From: a virus
Taxonomy: Duplodnaviria; Heunggongvirae; Uroviricota; Caudoviricetes
Strand: one strand, 5' to 3'
Length of the DNA stretch: 9,468 nt
IMG/VR virus record: IMGVR_UViG_2648501787_000002
Part shown: positions 1 through 9,468 of the stretch, in pieces
Layout: every line of letters starts with the position of its first letter
Numbering within the stretch: the first letter of the stretch is position 1
Notes under the pieces: model-generated
Seen by the model: the letters and a program-made list of their open reading frames with translations, nothing else
Told to the model about the DNA's origin: nothing
Databases searched by the model: none
Made by a program: the position numbers and the translations under genes

Positions 1-98
<98 letters not shown>

Positions 99-100
99 CC

Positions 101-400
101 TCAGAACTCCATCTGGATTTGTTCAGAACGCTCGGTCTTGCACACCGGGCGTTTTTTCTTTGTGATTTCATCAAGCGCATACTTAAAAGCCCTGCTAATC
201 GGGCTGATGTCTGATGCCATTCCGAAAGCACACAAGACCGAAGCAATAAATCTCCAGTCCGTTCTGCTTATCTTCGATTCATGACAGCCAATCATCTTTG
301 CCAGACCGCGCTGTGTAAGCGTTGACAGGTTAATGAGTAAATATGTTTCTGCGCGATCAACGTCGCGCTGTGATAGTTTGCTGTAACTTGTTTGTTCCAT
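101..400 (-). CDS. cII: CII-like transcriptional activator (lysogeny establishment); C-terminal end lambda-like, N-terminal two thirds divergent
   Basis: 99-aa ORF directly downstream of cro on the same strand. C-terminus KKRPVCKTERSEQIQMEF closely matches my recollection of lambda CII (NKKRPAATERSEQIQMEF). Central helix-turn-helix-like segment TQRGLAKMIGCHESKISR. Same size class as lambda CII. Confidence 0.75.
   Translation of the reverse strand: MEQTSYSKLSQRDVDRAETYLLINLSTLTQRGLAKMIGCHESKISRTDWRFIASVLCAFGMASDISPISRAFKYALDEITKKKRPVCKTERSEQIQMEF
129..160 (+). terminator. Rho-independent terminator of an oop-like antisense RNA, inside the 3' end of cII
   Basis: Stem cgctcggt / accgggcg (8 bp, one G-U wobble), loop cttgcac, then tttttt. 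Flanking sequence matches my recollection of the lambda oop RNA 3' region (CAGAACUCCAUCUGGAUUUGUUCAGAACGCUCGG...GGGCGUUUUUU). Confidence 0.5.
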
Positions 401-538: not shown

Positions 539-748
<210 letters not shown>

Positions 749-1560: not shown

Positions 1561-1998
1561 ATGATTAAAGAACGTATTTCTTATATCATTCCGATTGCGA
1601 TGGATGAAGGCAACCCAGTAACTCCAGTTCTTATCTATGAAATGGATAAAGACTCCCATGAAGTGGATCTATCATTTGGCGCTTTTTTTATCGGCCTTAA
1701 GGCTACAAAAAAATATTCCATAGGCATTGAGGTTTTCAATGCTCAAGAAATACCGATACCAATTGACACAAAACTGTACTCCAACCATAAGTTTTTTACG
1801 GTAGCAGAAGCCAACGATGGAGAAACCATCGTATCAACTTCTATGAGAATTAACTTCCCAAGGGTGAAAATTATCAAGCCTGGGATATTCGAAGTTAGAG
1901 CATCTCTGGTTAATCCTGATAAAGGCGAAGTAATTGATGTAAAAAGTTCGTTTTTTGACGTGAAGATAACAGGATCAGTTCGCGATGAGTTTAGATAA
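1561..1998 (+). CDS. Hypothetical soluble protein, first gene of a two-gene cargo module in the rexA-rexB slot
   Basis: 145-aa ORF starting 8 nt after the cI stop on the same strand. No recognisable resemblance to RexA or any family I know. Appears more AT-rich than cI. Overlaps the next ORF by 14 nt. Confidence 0.6.
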   Translation: MIKERISYIIPIAMDEGNPVTPVLIYEMDKDSHEVDLSFGAFFIGLKATKKYSIGIEVFNAQEIPIPIDTKLYSNHKFFTVAEANDGETIVSTSMRINFPRVKIIKPGIFEVRASLVNPDKGEVIDVKSSFFDVKITGSVRDEFR

Positions 1999-2857: not shown

Positions 2858-3241
2858 ATGACACGCAGAACTCAGTTCAAAGGCAATTCACGTTCTCGTC
2901 GTCGTGAGCGTTTAAAGGCAAAGGCATTAGCTAACGGCGTACTGGCCCGCGAAGAAGCAATAAGTTCAGAAGTATTACACCGCCCTACTCTAAGCAGAGC
3001 GCAGATTCAGGCTAAAGGTACTCACGAAACGCCTGAGCGCATAGAAGACGCTAAGCCAATTAAGTTCATGGCACAGGACGTGATCTGGCAACAGAAAGAA
3101 TACAGACGCAATCTGGAGCGAGCGGCCATTGTGTACGCGAATGAGTTTGGACATAAGCAACCAGAAACTGGTGTATGTCTTCCAAACGTAGCTCTTTACG
3201 CGGCAGGCTACAGGAAATCAAAACAACTGACAGCGAGATGA
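2858..3241 (+). CDS. N: N-type transcription antitermination protein, P22 gp24-like rather than lambda N
   Basis: 127-aa ORF, first gene after pL/nutL. AGGAGG lies 5 nt upstream. N-terminal arginine-rich motif (GNSRSRRRERLKAKAL). C-terminus VALYAAGYRKSKQLTAR resembles the P22 gene 24 C-terminus (VALYAAGHRKSKQITAR) as I recall it. Confidence 0.75.
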   Translation: MTRRTQFKGNSRSRRRERLKAKALANGVLAREEAISSEVLHRPTLSRAQIQAKGTHETPERIEDAKPIKFMAQDVIWQQKEYRRNLERAAIVYANEFGHKQPETGVCLPNVALYAAGYRKSKQLTAR

Positions 3242-4216: not shown

Positions 4217-4404
4217 TTTCAGGCCGTATAATCGTCCTTCATTTTTGGCATAAACAACAGAATAAATACTGCACTGTGTATTCATTCCAACGAGTGAATA
4301 CACGGAGCAATGTCGCTCGTAACTAAACAGGAGCCGACTTGTTCTGATTATTGGAAATCTTCTTTGCCCTCCAATGTGAGGGCGATTTTTTTGACGGAGG
4401 AATT

Positions 4405-4821
4405 ATGGAAATTACAGATATTCTGGTTAATCCAGATAATTACGACCGATTCAATATCTCTACTCAATCAGTTGATTTGGGTTGCGCAACTGTCAGCGCA
4501 TGGCTACTTAATGGTAAACAGTTGGATAAATGCCTTGATGCACATATGACGGTTAACAGCTTCCTTGCAGAAAAAACACACTGGCAAGATGCTGGAGGGA
4601 AATATGCTGGATGGCTTGAAAGCATGGGATTTGAATATCAATCTGATGAAGGTTGGTGGAGCCTTATAGCTGTAACGCCTGAGACAATAGAATGCTTCGT
4701 TAAATACTCAAACGACGATGACTATAAACACCAGGTGGATTCTGCGATAGAAAGATACAAAAGAAAATCGTTCAACCACGAAATATCATCAGTTCTTGAT
4801 TTCATAGAAATCTTCAAATAA
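4405..4821 (+). CDS. Hypothetical protein (138 aa)
   Basis: Probable start at ATG 4405 (GGAGG 5 nt upstream), in frame with the longer 4351 ORF in the track. No recognisable family. Confidence 0.5.
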   Translation: MEITDILVNPDNYDRFNISTQSVDLGCATVSAWLLNGKQLDKCLDAHMTVNSFLAEKTHWQDAGGKYAGWLESMGFEYQSDEGWWSLIAVTPETIECFVKYSNDDDYKHQVDSAIERYKRKSFNHEISSVLDFIEIFK

Positions 4822-4904
4822 GCCGCCAAGCGCGGCTTTACCGCATACCAATAATGCTTCACGAGAGGCATTTTCGTTATGCAATCAAATATAAGGAGTT
4901 ACCC

Positions 4905-5039
4905 ATGATGCACTTTCAGCTCGCGGGTAGCGGCGTCATGTCCGCTTTCTACCCGCACGAATCTGAATTATCACGCCGAGTTAAACAATTAATCAGAGCA
5001 GCAAAGAAACAACTGGAGGCGTTATGCGCAATGAAATAG
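4905..5039 (+). CDS. cIII: CIII-like small protein (candidate FtsH/HflB inhibitor that stabilises CII)
   Basis: Probable start at ATG 4905 (AGGAG upstream). 44 aa, MMHFQLAGSGVMSAFYPHESELSRRVKQLIRAAKKQL... Core resembles lambda CIII as I recall it (AIAGWPVAGCPSESLLERITRKLRDGWKRLI). Correct position in the pL operon. Confidence 0.5.
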   Translation: MMHFQLAGSGVMSAFYPHESELSRRVKQLIRAAKKQLEALCAMK

Positions 5040-5176
5040 CCATCAATCACCAGATGCTTCGTGCTGCACAAAACAAAGCAGTAATAGCCAGATTTATTGG
5101 TGATTCCAAAATGTGGCTTGAAGCAAATAAAGCGATGAAATCAGCTATCAACCTTCCGTGGTATCGCAGGAAATGA
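5024..5176 (+). CDS. Hypothetical small protein (50 aa), possibly Kil-like
   Basis: ATG 5024 with GGAGG upstream; overlaps the end of the cIII-like ORF. Translates to MRNEIAINHQMLRAAQNKAVIARFIGDSKMWLEANKAMKSAINLPWYRRK. Position (immediately after cIII) matches lambda kil. Similarity to Kil is from uncertain memory. Confidence 0.35.
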   Translation: MRNEIAINHQMLRAAQNKAVIARFIGDSKMWLEANKAMKSAINLPWYRRK

Positions 5177-5331
5177 GTTTTACAGATAACTGGTCAGACG
5201 AAGAATTCATTCGTCAGATGAAAGAATTAATCGGTAACGAAGGAGATATTCATGTCACTTGCAACCACAGTGAAGGAGAGCAAGTTACAGAGACGCATGT
5301 ACACGCAGAAAGCTCTCTGGTATCGCCATAA
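5173..5331 (+). CDS. Hypothetical small acidic protein (52 aa)
   Basis: ATG 5173 overlaps the stop of the preceding ORF (ATGA). Translates to MSFTDNWSDEEFIRQMKELIGNEGDIHVTCNHSEGEQVTETHVHAESSLVSP, about 11 acidic and 2 basic residues. Competes with the alternative-frame ORF 5252..5422. Confidence 0.3.
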   Translation: MSFTDNWSDEEFIRQMKELIGNEGDIHVTCNHSEGEQVTETHVHAESSLVSP

Positions 5332-5422
5332 TGGTGACCGCGAAGGAATGCGGGTATGCCTTAACTTGTCCCGAGTCGAAGTATTAAATCAGCGTTATTT
5401 CCTTGTGCCGTGTCCATTCTGA
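5252..5422 (+). CDS. Hypothetical small basic protein (56 aa), alternative frame to 5173..5331
   Basis: ATG 5252 lies 6 nt after AAGGAG. Translates to MSLATTVKESKLQRRMYTQKALWYRHNGDREGMRVCLNLSRVEVLNQRYFLVPCPF. Ends 8 nt before the annealase gene. I cannot tell which of the two overlapping frames is real, or whether both are. Confidence 0.3.
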   Translation: MSLATTVKESKLQRRMYTQKALWYRHNGDREGMRVCLNLSRVEVLNQRYFLVPCPF

Positions 5423-5430
5423 GGTGAATT

Positions 5431-6129
5431 ATGGATTTGAATAAATTCGATGAGCCATTCAGCCCCGAAGATATCGAATGGCGAATACAGCAAAGCGGTA
5501 AAACACGCGATGGCAAGGTGTGGGCTATGGTGCTGGCTTATGTCACGAACCGGGCAATCATGAAACGCCTGGACGATGTTTGCGGCAAAGCAGGATGGCG
5601 CAATGAATACCGCGATATTCCCAACAACGGCGGAGTTGAATGCGGCATATCAATCAAGATTGATTCCGAATGGGTAACCAAATGGGATGCTGCTGAAAAC
5701 ACGCAGGTAGAAGCCGTCAAAGGTGGTCGTTCCGGTGCAATGAAGCGTGCTGCCGTTCAATGGGGAATCGGTCGGTATCTGTATAACCTTGAGGAAGGTT
5801 TCGCACAAACATCTCTCGATAAAAAGCAGGGATGGCACAGGGCAAAACTGAAAGATGGAACAGGATTTTACTGGTCCCCTCCATCGCTGCCGGGATGGGC
5901 AATCCCAGCATCAGATAACAAACCATCACCAGAAAATACCAACCAGAAATCTCCATCGGTTGACTGCGAACAAATCCTGAAAGACTTCAGCGATTATGCG
6001 TCAACAGAAACTGACAAGAAAAAACTCATCGAGCGTTATCAGCGTGACTGGCAATTAATGGCTGGCAACGAGGAAGCGCAGGCTAAATGCGTTCAGGTAA
6101 TGAACATCAGAGTTAACGAACTAAAATAG
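5431..6129 (+). CDS. Single-strand annealing protein (Rad52/Erf-type recombinase) with a C-terminal extension
   Basis: 232-aa ORF with GAGGTGA ribosome-binding site. Contains AMKRAAVQWGIGRYLY, reminiscent of the Rad52 annealing-domain motif (KRALRSFGNALG in human Rad52). Immediately upstream of an SSB gene. C-terminal KKKLIERYQRDWQL region recalls P22 Erf from memory. Confidence 0.65.
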   Translation: MDLNKFDEPFSPEDIEWRIQQSGKTRDGKVWAMVLAYVTNRAIMKRLDDVCGKAGWRNEYRDIPNNGGVECGISIKIDSEWVTKWDAAENTQVEAVKGGRSGAMKRAAVQWGIGRYLYNLEEGFAQTSLDKKQGWHRAKLKDGTGFYWSPPSLPGWAIPASDNKPSPENTNQKSPSVDCEQILKDFSDYASTETDKKKLIERYQRDWQLMAGNEEAQAKCVQVMNIRVNELK

Positions 6130-6138
6130 GCGGCATAA

Positions 6139-6600
6139 ATGGCAAGCAGAGGCGTAAATAAGGTGATTATCCTTGGTCGGGTAGGACAAGACCCGGAAGT
6201 TCGATACTCACCATCAGGTACAGCGTTCGCTAACCTGACAATAGCCACGTCAGAACAATGGCGAGATAAAAATACTGGCGAGCAAAAGGAATTGACTGAA
6301 TGGCATCGTGTTGCTGTATCCGGGAAACTGGCTGAGGTCGTGGGGCAGTATGTGAAAAAAGGTGATCAGATTTATTTCGAGGGAATGCTGAGAACCAGAA
6401 AGTGGAAAGACCAGTCAGGGCAAGACCGTTACACAACCGAGGTTCATGTCGGAATTAATGGCGTGATGCAAATGCTTGGCGGCATTGGCGACAGCAAACA
6501 ACAAGCAGCCAGCAGGCAATCACAGAAGCCACAGCAGCAATCATCACCAGCACAACACAACGAACCTCCTATGAACTTCGACGATGAGATCCCATTTTAA
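6139..6600 (+). CDS. ssb: Single-stranded DNA-binding protein (SSB)
   Basis: 153-aa ORF. N-terminus [23 protein letters not shown] and [11 protein letters not shown] match E. coli SSB closely. Gln/Pro-rich linker and acidic tail NFDDEIPF (E. coli: DFDDDIPF). Confidence 0.92.
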
Positions 6601-6615
6601 TCATTGGGAGAAAAT

Positions 6616-7083
6616 ATGATCACTTGCAAAAAATGTGGAGAGAATAAACCACCTAATGGTTTTTATCCTAGAAATAAGGTGTGCAAGGAATGCACTAAAA
6701 AACGAGTAACTGAATATCAAAAAGGAATAGGAAAGCTAATACATAATAATGCTTGCAAAAAATATAACAAAAGCGAAAAGGGCAAGGTTGCATTAAGCAA
6801 AGCAAGAGAGAACTATCTGGAATCTCATCGCCAAAGACAGCAAGCAAGATGGTCAGTCAAACGGGCAATTAAATCTGGTAAGTTATGTAGACCAACAACG
6901 TGTCAGAAATGCAACAGCAAATGCCACCCAGACGCTCACCACTGCGATTACAGTAAACCTCTTGAAGTGATGTGGCTATGCAAAGCATGTCATGTTGAAT
7001 GGCACAAGCACAACAAGCCAATATATCCAGACGAGGAACCAGTAACTCTCCCCTTCCCTCGTCACGCTATTAACGCAATTTAA
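6616..7083 (+). CDS. Cys-rich zinc-binding protein with an HNH-endonuclease-like motif
   Basis: Probable start at ATG 6616 (GGGAG upstream; the track's 6604 start is a TTG). N-terminal CxxC...CxxC zinc ribbon; C-terminal CQKCNSKCHPDAHHCDYSKPLEVMWLCKACHVEWH fits an HNH pattern (H-x-D-H-H ... C-x2-C-H-x3-H). Confidence 0.5.
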   Translation: MITCKKCGENKPPNGFYPRNKVCKECTKKRVTEYQKGIGKLIHNNACKKYNKSEKGKVALSKARENYLESHRQRQQARWSVKRAIKSGKLCRPTTCQKCNSKCHPDAHHCDYSKPLEVMWLCKACHVEWHKHNKPIYPDEEPVTLPFPRHAINAI

Positions 7084-7096
7084 TCAGGAGAAAAAC

Positions 7097-7393
7097 ATGC
7101 CAGCGCCTTTGTATGGTGCGGATGACGCGCGCCGCTGTTCCGGCAATTCCGTATCGGAGGTGCTGGATAAATTCAGAAAAAACTACGATCGAATAATGTC
7201 TCTACCGCAGGAAACGAAAGAGGAAAAGGAATTTCGCCACTGTATATGGCTTGCAGAGAAAGAAGAACGCGAGCGAATTTACCAGACATCAATCCGACCA
7301 TTCCGCAAAGCCACATATACCCACTTCCCTGAATATATCGACCCGCGCCTGCGTAATTACCGCTCACGCTATGGCGCTATCAGTAATGACTGA
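7097..7393 (+). CDS. Hypothetical protein (98 aa)
   Basis: ORF with AGGAG ribosome-binding site, same strand as the operon. No recognisable family. Confidence 0.5.

Positions 7394-9368: not shown

Positions 9369-9468
<100 letters not shown>

What the first reader, a model, noticed from the sequence alone, without database searches (positions are those of the whole stretch)
4905..5422. Chain of translationally coupled micro-ORFs (cIII-like, Kil-like, acidic 52-aa protein) with two competing frames
Three or four small ORFs are packed with overlapping stop/start codons (cIII-like end overlaps the 5024 start; ATGA at 5173..5176). Between the Kil-like ORF and the annealase, two ORFs overlap in different frames: 5173..5331 is strongly acidic and 5252..5422 is basic with the better ribosome-binding site. 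The acidic one sits where lambda has gam, so it could be a nuclease inhibitor or DNA mimic. Dual coding is also possible.
Basis: partly seen in the sequence, partly recalled or inferred. Interest (0 to 1): 0.5.

Follow-up and report, generated by a model that had tools for sequence, protein, structure and literature searches.

The report
Small overlapping genes before phage recombinase
This is the already-catalogued run of tiny early-left-operon genes of an HK97/Sf6-type lambdoid prophage (cIII, kil, gp42.1, gp42). In the two-frame overlap only the basic 56-aa gene is under protein-level selection, and that gene always sits directly in front of the phage's DNA-annealing recombinase.

Summary
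cIII (4905-5039), kil (5024-5176), acidic ORF A (5173-5331) and basic ORF B (5252-5422) are stacked with overlapping stops and starts, upstream of a Rad52-family annealase (5431-6129).

None of it is new sequence. A and B are 98-100% identical to Sf6 genes 30 and 29 and match the HK97 gp42.1 and gp42 families (PHROGs 2123 and 1723). The 250-nt region occurs in 856 of 5,426 complete E. coli genomes.

Comparing five diverged lineages separates the two frames:
- B is under purifying selection throughout (dN/dS 0.04-0.27).
- A is constrained only in its first 26 codons (dN/dS about 0.1-0.6, with in-frame indels and a retained start codon).
- A's 26-codon tail inside B is unconstrained (dN/dS 0.9-2.5), and its openness is expected by chance (P = 0.43-0.83).

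True dual coding is therefore not supported.

B also occurs without A, and in all 119 readable fetched loci it lies 1-13 nt upstream of an annealase gene or, in one locus, of an inserted HNH gene followed by ERF (ERF, Rad52-like or AAA_24/Sak4 types). It is most likely the first gene of the recombination module.

A resembles P22 Arf only in position, acidity and an SDEEFI motif, and profile comparison rejects homology. The Gam-like idea has no support, and Abc2 is present at 7097-7393. The functions of A and B remain unknown.

The parts
4815..4838 (+). G+C-rich hairpin followed by T's, just upstream of cIII. It corresponds to the 'putative terminator' annotated in HK97 between gene 45 and cIII.
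   Evidence: HK97 annotation at L001 1466-1489, mapped through the alignment offset. The sequence GCCGCCAAGCGCGGCTTT can be read. A second terminator-like hairpin at 4853-4872 came from the scan.
4905..5039 (+). cIII (HK022/HK97 type), 44 aa, an FtsH-inhibitory lysogeny factor.
   Evidence: Pfam PF08134, E = 2e-30. phrog_550. Annotated as cIII in HK97, HK022 and Sf6. SD AAGGAG, -8.8 kcal/mol.
5024..5176 (+). kil, 50 aa, a host cell-division inhibitor. Its start lies 16 nt inside cIII.
   Evidence: Pfam PF06301, E = 1.7e-20. phrog_2055, E = 1e-35. SD GGAGG, -9.3 kcal/mol.
5173..5331 (+). ORF A: acidic, 52 aa, net charge -9. It equals Sf6 gene 30 and belongs to the HK97 gp42.1 family. The start ATG overlaps the kil stop (ATGA), and the SD is weak.
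   Evidence: phrog_2123, E = 6.6e-42. Annotations. SD -4.3 kcal/mol.
5173..5250 (+). The constrained part of ORF A: N-terminal 26 codons, MSFTDNWSDEEFIRQMKELIGNEGDI (core motif W-S-D/E-x-x-F-I/V-R-x-M-K-D/E-L-I-G).
   Evidence: Between-lineage dN/dS is 0.05-0.6 in frame A. Summed pN/pS is 0.32 in frame A against 1.2 in the other two frames, and differences concentrate at third codon positions. Indels are in-frame and the start codon is retained (ATG, or GTG in L097). The same N-terminus is reused in a 35-aa short form in HK140.
5240..5245 (+). Shine-Dalgarno sequence AAGGAG of ORF B, embedded in A's codons for N-E-G-D, 6 nt from the ATG at 5252.
   Evidence: Sequence. Duplex -8.8 kcal/mol. GAAGGAG is conserved in every A-bearing lineage.
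5252..5422 (+). ORF B: basic, 56 aa, net charge +6. It equals Sf6 gene 29 and belongs to the HK97 gp42 family. It is the first cistron of the recombination module and is predicted to be a helical hairpin.
   Evidence: phrog_1723, E = 1.4e-34. dN/dS 0.04-0.27. It stands alone without A in S9-5-type and L094-type loci. AF2 gives helices 7-26 and 30-51, pLDDT 89.7. It lies 1-13 nt upstream of an annealase gene (or, in one locus, an inserted HNH gene followed by ERF) in all 119 readable loci.
5251..5328 (+). Tail of ORF A inside ORF B (26 codons). It is open but unconstrained in frame A.
   Evidence: Frame-A dN/dS 0.9-2.5. Polymorphism 1 S / 11 N in frame A against 9 S / 3 N in frame B. Mean between-lineage amino-acid identity is 48% for the A tail against 73% for B. 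Probability of openness by chance is 0.43-0.83.
5399..5419 (+). C-terminal tail of B, FLVPCPF (family consensus F-L-G-x-x-P-F at the free C-terminus). It is among the most conserved segments of the family and is predicted to be flexible.
   Evidence: L51, P55 and F56 are invariant and F50 and G52 nearly invariant. Distant homologues all end in ...PF. pLDDT for residues 51-56 is about 70. The window carries a rare G52V allele.
5431..6129 (+). Rad52/Rad22-family single-strand annealing protein. Its SD (GAGGTG) overlaps the stop codon of B.
   Evidence: Pfam PF04098, E = 4.8e-26. phrog_1097, E = 1e-128. Sequence.
6139..6600 (+). Phage SSB, C-terminus ...DDEIPF.
   Evidence: Translation. Sf6 gene 27 annotation.
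7097..7393 (+). Abc2, the P22-type anti-RecBCD protein.
   Evidence: Pfam PF11043, E = 4.1e-61.

Best explanation
The segment is the middle of the N-antiterminated early-left (pL) operon of an HK97/Sf6-type lambdoid prophage. It carries four small cistrons in series, each start overlapping or abutting the previous stop: cIII (FtsH inhibitor), kil (division inhibitor), ORF A and ORF B. A Rad52-type annealase, SSB and Abc2 follow.

Shown:
- ORF B is a bona fide conserved 56-aa protein, predicted to be a helical hairpin with a conserved flexible tail ending ...FLGxxPF. It has its own strong SD.
- B is the gene that always sits directly in front of the annealase gene, whatever the annealase family.
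- ORF A is a second, optional small gene. Its weak-SD start always overlaps the stop of whatever gene lies upstream.
- Only A's first 26 codons are under protein-level selection. After that, A simply runs on in B's -1 frame until the first stop. That frame is rarely closed given B's amino-acid sequence, so the 80-nt two-frame overlap is a by-product and not a dual-coding device.

Inferred:
- A is translated mainly by ribosomes that terminate on kil and re-initiate at the ATGA.
- B is translated by independent initiation.
- B, and perhaps the acidic N-terminal helix of A, are accessory factors of the phage recombination module. They would act on a partner common to ERF, Rad52-like and Sak4 annealases (ssDNA/SSB or a host nuclease/recombination protein), most likely through B's C-terminal peptide.
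- A is a positional and compositional analogue of P22 Arf, not a demonstrable homologue.
For: Identity and operon context:
- Pfam and PHROG hits.
- HK97, Sf6, HK022 and P22 annotations.
- No excess of promoters in 4700-5600, and no terminator-like site downstream of the cIII start (the two hairpins at 4815-4838 and 4853-4872 lie upstream of cIII).

B is real:
- The family keeps 56-60 aa across about 20 clusters at 50% identity.
- dN/dS is 0.04-0.27. Within-population pN/pS is 0.14.
- It occurs without A.
- AF2 pLDDT is 89.7.

Synteny of B with the annealase:
- Downstream gene in the fetched loci: ERF 58, Rad52-like 51, AAA_24 6+1, a second ERF type 2, and HNH followed by ERF 1.
- Distant homologues P0121, P0122, P0129 and P0133 each lie 7-8 nt upstream of ERF.
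- Upstream neighbours vary: kil, a kil variant, kilR, a long cIII-like gene and others.

A's N-terminus is coding:
- pN/pS is 0.32 in frame A against 1.2 in the other frames, and 10/15, 13/22 and 7/11 differences fall at third positions.
- Indels are in-frame (-1 codon, +4 codons), and the start is retained at the upstream stop in all lineages.

A's tail is unconstrained.

RBS contrast.

The Arf position and role come from the P22 record ('stimulates erf-mediated recombination') and from PMC12315714, which says Arf aids but is not essential for recombination and that its molecular function is unknown.
Against: - No expression data were available, so translation of A and B is inferred.
- At short evolutionary range A's N-terminus is only weakly constrained: 8 S / 23 N, pN/pS 0.6, including singleton start-loss and nonsense variants.
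- A is absent from several B-bearing lineages.
- B's role in recombination rests only on gene order.
- B has no detectable homologue of known function by Pfam, PDB sequence search, Foldseek against PDB and BFVD, or PADLOC.
- Natural frameshift variants replace B's first 17-19 residues with A-frame sequence and fuse A to B's C-terminal two-thirds. They occur in the HK97 record and in protein P0030, which is indexed in 36 blocks of the contig collection (24 contigs read). Either B's N-terminus is dispensable or those prophage copies are decaying.
- RefSeq annotation of the region is inconsistent: A only, B only or neither.
Confidence: 0.65

Rival explanations
1. ORF A has no protein function. 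It is a bridging or leader ORF (or a spurious one) whose translation merely carries ribosomes from kil across B's initiation region, modulating B's translation by occlusion or by unfolding. The conserved nucleotides serve B's translation-initiation region or act as a homology patch for module exchange.
For: - Within-population pN/pS is 0.6, with singleton start-loss (M1V, M1K) and nonsense (S8*) alleles.
- A is missing in the S9-5-type and L094-type lineages.
- A has a weak SD.
- A always ends inside the next gene, both in the long form and in the HK140 short form.
- The first 50 nt are 100% identical between phages with different flanks, as expected for a recombination joint.
- The 3' part of the A-only region contains B's SD.
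Against: - Between diverged lineages the A-only region shows dN/dS of 0.05-0.6, a frame-specific third-position bias (pN/pS 0.32 against 1.2 in the other frames), in-frame indels and conservative replacements across the whole 26 codons, not just near B's SD.
- There is no significant mRNA structure around B's start that would need unfolding (z = -0.98).
Confidence: 0.2
2. True dual coding: both reading frames of 5252-5331 encode functionally important residues, so A's acidic tail matters as well as B's N-terminus.
For: - Frame A is open through the overlap in all five A-bearing lineages and closes early (14 nt into B) in the S9-5 lineage, which lacks A.
- The tail is acidic or polar in every lineage.
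Against: - Frame-A dN/dS is 0.9-2.5 against 0.06-0.27 for frame B.
- Polymorphisms are 11 N / 1 S in A against 3 N / 9 S in B.
- Tail identity is 48% against 73% for B.
- Openness is expected by chance at 0.43-0.83 per lineage, and L094-type loci without A are open for 128 nt anyway.
- The stop position varies: 80, 86 or 92 nt after B's ATG.
Confidence: 0.05
3. One reading: the acidic ORF A is a Gam-like nuclease or restriction inhibitor, or a DNA mimic, occupying lambda's gam position.
For: - Net charge is -9 in 52 aa.
- It is located between kil and the annealase, where lambda has gam (established gene order of lambda).
- P22 Arf, the positional analogue, has an unknown molecular function.
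Against: - There is no similarity to any Pfam family, including Gam families, or to PADLOC models.
- Only 26 N-terminal residues are constrained, which is short for a DNA mimic.
- The operon already encodes the anti-RecBCD protein Abc2.
- A-type N-termini occur in modules with and without Abc2. This was not systematically counted.
Confidence: 0.06
4. A and B are joined by programmed +1 (or -2) ribosomal frameshifting into an 82-aa A-B fusion protein.
For: - Fused 82-83-aa versions exist naturally: the HK97 gp42.1 record (+2 nt) and P0030 (indexed in 36 blocks of the contig collection, 24 contigs read; 1-nt deletion), plus singletons with other junctions. Fusions are therefore at least tolerated.
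Against: - All fusions are caused by genomic indels, not by a shared slippery site.
- The HK97 +2 pattern is found in no other viral contig.
- No recognisable shift site or stimulatory stop codon could be read in 5252-5331.
- B's N-terminal 26 residues are conserved in their own frame. That would be unnecessary if the fusion were the product.
Confidence: 0.03

Closest known systems
HK97 gp42 / Sf6 gene 29 protein (PHROG 1723), which corresponds to ORF B
   Same: ORF B matches phrog_1723 end to end (E = 1.4e-34). The DNA is 97-99% identical to Sf6, HK97, ECP1, CUS-3 and IME10. It occupies the same position immediately upstream of the annealase gene.
   Different: The window's allele carries G52V at a >=90% conserved glycine, found in only 3 of the fetched loci. 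The deposited HK97 gp42 differs at its N-terminus because of a +2-nt frameshift. The PHROG label 'recombinase' is not backed by any tested function that I could find.
HK97 gp42.1 / Sf6 gene 30 protein (PHROG 2123), which corresponds to ORF A
   Same: ORF A matches phrog_2123 end to end (E = 6.6e-42). The ATGA junction with kil is the same.
   Different: The HK97 record shows an 83-aa A-B fusion, whereas here (as in Sf6, HK022 and ECP1) A is a separate 52-aa ORF overlapping B.
P22 Arf (accessory recombination function; PF17585, phrog_2445)
   Same: - Small acidic protein (47 aa against 52 aa).
- Encoded between kil and the annealase gene, with overlapping starts and stops.
- Shares an N-terminal F/W-SDEEFI motif at almost the same offset.
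- One public source labels an A homologue 'accessory recombination function protein' (P0016).
   Different: - No family-level homology: no Pfam hit for A at E <= 0.1.
- hhalign of the A family against the Arf family gives probability 0.5% and E = 0.11 over 11 columns.
- Arf abuts erf directly, whereas here B lies between A and the annealase.
- Arf's conserved core (VEQQINLAAER...W.EFAG) has no counterpart in A.
Lambda Gam / P22 Abc2 (anti-RecBCD proteins of lambdoid Rec modules)
   Same: They occupy the same general region of the pL operon, between kil and the recombination genes or just after them.
   Different: Neither A nor B resembles them. A genuine Abc2 is present separately at 7097-7393.
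Serially overlapped, translationally coupled small cistrons in lambdoid pL operons (for example P22 c3-kil-arf-erf)
   Same: Stop/start overlaps between successive genes: 16 nt for cIII/kil and ATGA for kil/A here, compared with 20 nt, 11 nt and ATGA in P22.
   Different: The 80-nt out-of-frame A/B overlap is much longer than a coupling overlap. The evidence here indicates that it is a run-on of A and not a functional design.

Membership tests
cIII protein family (PF08134) | Match to the curated family HMM above its gathering score | tested here: met
   104.7 bits against a cut-off of 25, E = 2e-30, residues 2-38
Lambda Kil (PF06301) | Match to the curated family HMM above its gathering score | tested here: met
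   72.6 bits against a cut-off of 27.6, E = 1.7e-20; phrog_2055, E = 1.2e-35
Lambda Kil (PF06301) | Blocks host cell division (filamentation on expression) | not testable with these tools
   Requires an experiment
HK97 gp42 family (phrog_1723), ORF B | Full-length profile match | tested here: met
   E = 1.4e-34, residues 1-56 on profile positions 3-58 of 58
HK97 gp42 family (phrog_1723), ORF B | Evolves as a protein (purifying selection in its own frame; conserved length) | tested here: met
   dN/dS 0.04-0.27; 24 S / 12 N polymorphisms; 56-60 aa in all homologues
HK97 gp42 family (phrog_1723), ORF B | 'Recombinase' activity, as the PHROG label says | not testable with these tools
   No literature found. 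A 56-aa helical hairpin is unlikely to be an enzyme. Only the synteny with annealase genes supports a link to recombination.
HK97 gp42.1 family (phrog_2123), ORF A | Full-length profile match | tested here: met
   E = 6.6e-42, residues 1-52 of 52
HK97 gp42.1 family (phrog_2123), ORF A | Evolves as a protein over its whole length | tested here: not met
   Only codons 1-26 are constrained (dN/dS 0.05-0.6). Codons 27-52 have dN/dS of 0.9-2.5.
P22 Arf (PF17585 / phrog_2445), considered for ORF A | Sequence or profile homology to Arf | tested here: not met
   No Pfam hit at E <= 0.1. hhalign probability 0.5%, E = 0.11. Pairwise, only a 7-residue motif aligns. For the HK97 fusion, phrog_2445 E = 0.069.
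P22 Arf (PF17585 / phrog_2445), considered for ORF A | Small acidic protein encoded between kil and the annealase gene, with overlapping starts and stops | tested here: met
P22 Arf (PF17585 / phrog_2445), considered for ORF A | Stimulates annealase-dependent recombination | not testable with these tools
   Requires phage crosses or recombineering assays
P22 Arf, considered for ORF B | Sequence or profile homology to Arf | tested here: not met
   hhalign probability 0.08%
Gam-like / anti-nuclease DNA mimic, considered for ORF A | Similarity to a known anti-RecBCD or anti-restriction family | tested here: not met
   No Pfam or PADLOC hit. Abc2 is present elsewhere in the operon.
Dual-coding overlapping gene pair | Purifying selection detectable in both frames of the overlap | tested here: not met
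   Frame B dN/dS 0.06-0.27; frame A 0.9-2.5. 9 of 12 polymorphisms fall at B's third codon position (binomial p = 0.004).
Dual-coding overlapping gene pair | The second frame is open longer than expected given the first frame's protein | tested here: not met
   P(open >= 26 codons) = 0.43-0.83 in codon-resampling simulations
Programmed ribosomal frameshift (A to B) | A conserved slippery site or stimulator in the overlap | tested here: inconclusive
   None is recognisable by eye in 5252-5331. Natural fusions arise from different genomic indels. No dedicated frameshift-site predictor was available.

The most novel reading that the evidence does not exclude
ORF B (the gp42 family) is a general, annealase-family-independent cofactor of phage recombination modules. 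Its conserved, flexible C-terminal peptide (...F-L-G-x-x-P-F with a free carboxylate) would dock into the pocket that normally receives the ...I-P-F tip of SSB, on the phage annealase or on host SSB-interacting proteins such as ExoI, RecQ or RecO. This would tune access of SSB partners to recombination intermediates. The acidic N-terminal helix of ORF A could supply the missing acidic element or act as a second adaptor. If true, adding this 56-aa gene could improve or broaden recombineering systems.
Probability: 0.08. Interest if true: 0.6.

Novelty: already known. Interest (0 to 1): 0.27.

Why it matters
As a sequence feature this is ordinary. The ORFs have been in GenBank since the HK97, HK022 and Sf6 genomes were deposited, and they belong to existing PHROG families.

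The follow-up adds three practical points:
- It settles which frame is selected in the overlap. Automated annotation currently gets this wrong or leaves it out, calling A only, B only or neither in RefSeq E. coli genomes.
- It identifies a very common but uncharacterised 56-aa protein (the locus is in 856 of 5,426 complete E. coli genomes). The protein is locked in position directly upstream of single-strand annealing protein genes of at least three families. That makes it a cheap, testable candidate accessory factor for phage recombination and recombineering.
- It shows that the resemblance of the acidic ORF to P22 Arf is one of position and composition only.

Tried and rejected
1. Arf homology for A. 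Pairwise BLASTP aligns only WSDEEFI, and hhalign of the A family against the Arf family gives probability 0.5%. Rejected as membership; kept as an analogy.
2. Arf homology for B. hhalign probability 0.08%. Rejected.
3. B as a Kil paralogue, suggested by a helix-GD-helix look. BLASTP finds no alignment. Rejected.
4. Function of B from its fold. The AF2 model is confident, but Foldseek against PDB and BFVD gives only generic helical hairpins with E >= 0.2. The PDB profile search gives nothing, and PADLOC gives nothing.
5. An A-B complex inferred from the natural fusion P0049. AF2 pLDDT was 58, which is uninformative.
6. An mRNA structure sequestering B's SD, which would require translation of A. 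MFE z = -0.98, not significant.
7. The HK97 A-B fusion as a conserved form. The exact +2 pattern is found only in HK97 itself among viral contigs. It is either a strain-specific mutation or an old sequencing error.
8. Openness of frame A as evidence for selection. Simulation shows it is expected.
9. Literature on gp42, gp42.1 and Arf. Nothing was found on the HK97/Sf6 ORFs. Arf is only described as aiding recombination, with unknown molecular function.
10. The alternative GTG start of A at 5158, listed by the ORF finder. It has no SD (+1.2 kcal/mol), whereas the ATG at 5173 is the position conserved in all lineages.
Full report
**What the window is.** The + strand carries the immunity region and early-left (pL) operon of a lambdoid prophage.
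- cII (101-400, minus strand; PF05269) and cro (539-739, minus strand).
- cI (840-1553) and N (2858-3241; PF25694).
- Several unknown ORFs.
- Then cIII, kil, two small overlapping ORFs, a Rad52-family annealase (5431-6129), SSB (6139-6600) and Abc2 (7097-7393; PF11043, E = 4e-61).
- The closest phage records are HK106, HK97 and mEp234 in mosaic pieces. For 4850-5450 itself, ECP1 is 98% identical, and Sf6, IME10 and CUS-3 are 98-99% identical over the kil-to-annealase part.
- No excess of promoter-like sites occurs in 4700-5600. The only terminator-like hairpins (4815-4838, annotated as a putative terminator in HK97, and 4853-4872) lie upstream of cIII. The four small ORFs and the annealase are therefore read from one transcript.

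**Check of the observation.** All coordinates are right.

| Gene | Coordinates | Size | Net charge | SD / anti-SD duplex |
|---|---|---|---|---|
| cIII | 4905-5039 | 44 aa | +4 | -8.8 kcal/mol |
| kil | 5024-5176 | 50 aa | +7 | -9.3 kcal/mol |
| ORF A | 5173-5331 | 52 aa | -9 | -4.3 kcal/mol (AGGA only 3 nt from the ATG) |
| ORF B | 5252-5422 | 56 aa | +6 | -8.8 kcal/mol (AAGGAG 5240-5245, spacing 6) |
| annealase | 5431-6129 | 232 aa | n/a | -6.9 kcal/mol (SD overlaps B's stop) |

- kil starts 16 nt inside cIII.
- ATGA at 5173-5176 links the kil stop to the A start.
- B overlaps A by 80 nt in the +1 frame.
- The cIII and Kil calls are supported by Pfam (E = 2e-30 and 1.7e-20).

**Both ORFs are already catalogued.**
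- A matches phrog_2123 (E = 6.6e-42) and B matches phrog_1723 (E = 1.4e-34), both end to end.
- They are annotated as gene 30 / gene 29 in Sf6, 42.1 / 42 in HK022, and Gp42.1 / Gp42 in HK97.
- The 250-nt A+B region is found at >=80% coverage in 856 of 5,426 complete E. coli genomes.
- RefSeq annotation of it is erratic: A only, B only or neither.
- I found no paper on either protein.

**Which frame is selected?** I collected about 140 related loci and analysed them with scripts.

Within the window-type population (104 loci, 70 haplotypes):

| Region | Synonymous / non-synonymous | pN/pS |
|---|---|---|
| Overlap, read in frame B | 9 S / 3 N | (with B-only) 0.14 |
| Overlap, read in frame A | 1 S / 11 N | 3.3 |
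| B-only part | 15 S / 9 N | (with overlap) 0.14 |
| A-only part | 8 S / 23 N | 0.6 |

- The overlap has 12 variants. Nine of them fall at B's third codon position (binomial p = 0.004; Fisher p = 0.003 for frame A against frame B).
- The A-only part differs significantly from B (Fisher p = 0.001).

Between five diverged lineages (window type; L097/L099; L111/L113/L124; L122/L123; L096), Nei-Gojobori dN/dS:

| Region | Frame | dN/dS |
|---|---|---|
| B-only | B | 0.04-0.25 |
| Overlap | B | 0.06-0.27 |
| Overlap | A | 0.9-2.5 |
| A-only (26 codons) | A | 0.05-0.6 |

- As a control, the A-only region gives summed pN/pS of 0.32 in frame A but 1.2 in the other two frames. Ten of 15, 13 of 22 and 7 of 11 differences fall at A's third codon positions.
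- A's N-terminus also shows in-frame indels (-1 codon in L122/L123, +4 codons in L096).
- A keeps a start codon (ATG, or GTG in L097) that overlaps the stop of whatever gene is upstream: kil, a kil variant, kilR or a long cIII-like gene.
- Mean amino-acid identity in the overlap is 73% for B and 48% for the A tail.
- Resampling synonymous codons for each lineage's B protein leaves frame A open for >=26 codons with probability 0.43-0.83. The long open tail therefore needs no selection. L094-type loci, which lack A, are open there anyway, whereas S9-5-type loci close after 14 nt.

Conclusions from these tests:
- B is a constrained gene throughout.
- A is a real but weakly constrained gene whose functional part is residues 1-26 (MSFTDNWSDEEFIRQMKELIGNEGDI).
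- The A/B overlap is a run-on of A and not dual coding.

**Independence of the two genes.**
- B occurs without A in Salmonella phage S9-5 and its relatives, and in L094/L095.
- A's N-terminus occurs without B as a 31-35-aa acidic ORF (MSFTDNWSDEEFIRQM[K/N][E/K]MLNQ...DDDSDSE). In HK140 this sits between a long cIII-like gene and a 103-aa ORF followed by RecT. Its end again overlaps the next gene.

**What B is attached to.** In every fetched locus where the downstream gene is readable (119 loci), B's stop lies 1-13 nt from the start of a single-strand annealing protein gene:

| Downstream gene | Loci |
|---|---|
| ERF (HK97 type) | 58 |
| Rad52/Rad22 type | 51 |
| AAA_24 / Sak4 type | 6 + 1 |
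| Second ERF type | 2 |
| HNH homing endonuclease inserted, then ERF | 1 |

- More distant family members found by an exhaustive profile search (20 clusters at 50% identity, all real members 56-60 aa) obey the same rule. P0121, P0122, P0129 and P0133 each lie 7-8 nt upstream of a PF04404 ERF gene.
- Upstream neighbours, by contrast, vary.
- B therefore belongs to the recombination module, as its first cistron, rather than to the cIII/kil module.

**Structure of B.**
- AlphaFold2 with a 15-sequence alignment predicts a helical hairpin (helices 7-26 and 30-51, mean pLDDT 89.7) followed by a less confident tail.
- That tail is among the most conserved segments of the family...N-x-[RK]-[YF]-F-L-G-x-x-P-F at the free C-terminus. 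L51, P55 and F56 are invariant.
- Fold and sequence searches against PDB, BFVD, Pfam and PADLOC give nothing specific.

**Relation to P22 Arf and lambda Gam.**
- In P22 the gene between kil and erf is arf (47 aa, acidic, 'stimulates erf-mediated recombination'). According to PMC12315714 it aids but is not essential for recombination, and its molecular function is unknown.
- A shares with Arf its position, size, acidity, overlapping starts and stops, and an F/W-SDEEFI motif at nearly the same offset.
- A does not hit the Arf Pfam family. A profile-profile comparison of the two families gives probability 0.5%. B is also unrelated to Arf.
- A is thus an analogue at best.
- The Gam-like reading has no positive support, and the operon has its own anti-RecBCD gene, Abc2.

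**Natural A-B fusions.**
- The HK97 record has two extra bases (and a T>G change) around 5300-5308. These fuse A's frame to B's C-terminal two-thirds, giving the 83-aa 'Gp42.1'. That exact pattern occurs in no other viral contig.
- A different 1-nt deletion at the same spot gives the 82-aa P0030. It is listed in 36 blocks of the contig index, and 24 carrying contigs of E. coli assemblies were read.
- Singleton fusions with other junctions exist.
- The indels cluster where window-type and HK022-type sequences diverge: they are identical up to about 5307 and differ by my estimate about 25% beyond (inferred from the protein comparison and the 87.6% overall identity).
- These are genomic frameshifts, not evidence for programmed frameshifting. 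They suggest that B's C-terminal 37 residues are the essential part, or that those prophage copies are decaying.
- An AF2 model of the fusion P0049 was too poor to use (pLDDT 58).

**Most likely mechanism.**

Shown:
- One transcript with serial stop/start overlaps.
- A strong independent SD for B and a weak one for A.
- Protein-level selection on all of B and on codons 1-26 of A.
- Strict B-annealase adjacency.

Inferred:
- A is made mainly by termination-reinitiation from kil, or from whatever gene precedes it.
- Ribosomes translating A run through B's start and stop 80 nt into B, with at most a modest effect on B's initiation. There is no significant local RNA structure (z = -0.98).
- B, possibly with A's acidic helix, acts as an accessory factor of the recombination module on a partner common to ERF, Rad52-like and Sak4 annealases.
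- Annealases are thought to depend on the C-terminal tail of SSB (PMC12054835), and B ends in a conserved ...PF, as SSB does (...DDEIPF in this window). A speculative reading is therefore that B's tail uses SSB-tail-binding pockets. The similarity is only two residues, so I give this reading low probability.

**Verdict.**
- The feature is already known as annotated ORFs of unknown function.
- The useful residue is a clean answer on frame selection and a testable lead on the gp42 family as a universal annealase-adjacent small protein.

Noticed in passing
window 1-98 and 9371-9468: The two ends of the window form a perfect 98-nt inverted repeat. The arms are 100% identical to the istB-side end of IS100kyp, an IS21-family element present in many copies in E. 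coli genomes. Phage homology runs only from about 108/145 to 9370. The 9.3-kb immunity/pL segment is therefore bracketed by two inverted IS100 ends. It is either a prophage remnant cut by IS insertions (just past the cII stop on the left) or a contig that breaks in IS copies.
   Followed up: partly
window 5173-5422 equivalents in RefSeq E. coli genomes (L129, L143, L144, L145): PGAP annotation of this 250-nt stretch is inconsistent. Only the acidic ORF A is called in CFSAN027350, only ORF B in APEC20/16, and nothing in VR50 or GPEC1240. The frame under stronger selection (B) is often missing.
   Followed up: partly
window 5405-5407 (codon 52 of ORF B): The window's B allele has Val at position 52, where >=90% of the family has Gly (FLVPCPF against FLGPCPF). 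Only 3 of the fetched loci share it. It sits in the conserved C-terminal tail, so this copy might be functionally impaired.
   Followed up: no
L001 (HK97 AF069529) 1899-2075; window about 5300-5308: The deposited HK97 sequence has two extra bases 6 nt apart, plus a T>G change that creates a new ATG. Together these turn A and B into nested in-frame ORFs (Gp42.1 and Gp42). No other viral contig has this pattern. It is possibly a 1990s sequencing error. An independent 1-nt deletion at the same spot is found in at least 24 contigs of E. coli assemblies.
   Followed up: partly
window 7097-7393: A P22-type anti-RecBCD gene, abc2, is present (PF11043, E = 4e-61). It lies downstream of SSB and of a 159-aa Cys/His-rich ORF (6604-7083) that has no Pfam or PADLOC hit.
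   Followed up: partly
L007 (HK140) 1501-1608; proteins P0050-P0053: A short (31-35 aa) acidic ORF shares the first 16-18 residues and the first 50 nt (100% identical) with ORF A. It then diverges and ends inside the next gene, a 103-aa ORF upstream of RecT. The shared 50 nt look like a module-exchange joint.
   Followed up: partly
L006 (Salmonella phage S9-5) 1690-2160: An HNH_3 homing-endonuclease gene is inserted exactly between the ORF B homologue and the ERF gene. This is the only locus where B and the annealase are separated. L132-L134 have HNH genes just after ERF.
   Followed up: no
window 1561-1998 and 1985-2356: Two ORFs (145 aa and 123 aa) sit directly after cI, where lambda has rexA/rexB. 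The first has no Pfam hit. The second has only weak coiled-coil-type hits (XhlA, E = 0.0013, below the cut-off) and a hydrophobic C-terminus. They are a candidate prophage-expressed exclusion or defence pair.
   Followed up: no
window 1882-1922 and 4399-4439: A 41-nt direct repeat with 73% identity, located inside two unrelated ORFs. It is probably chance.
   Followed up: no
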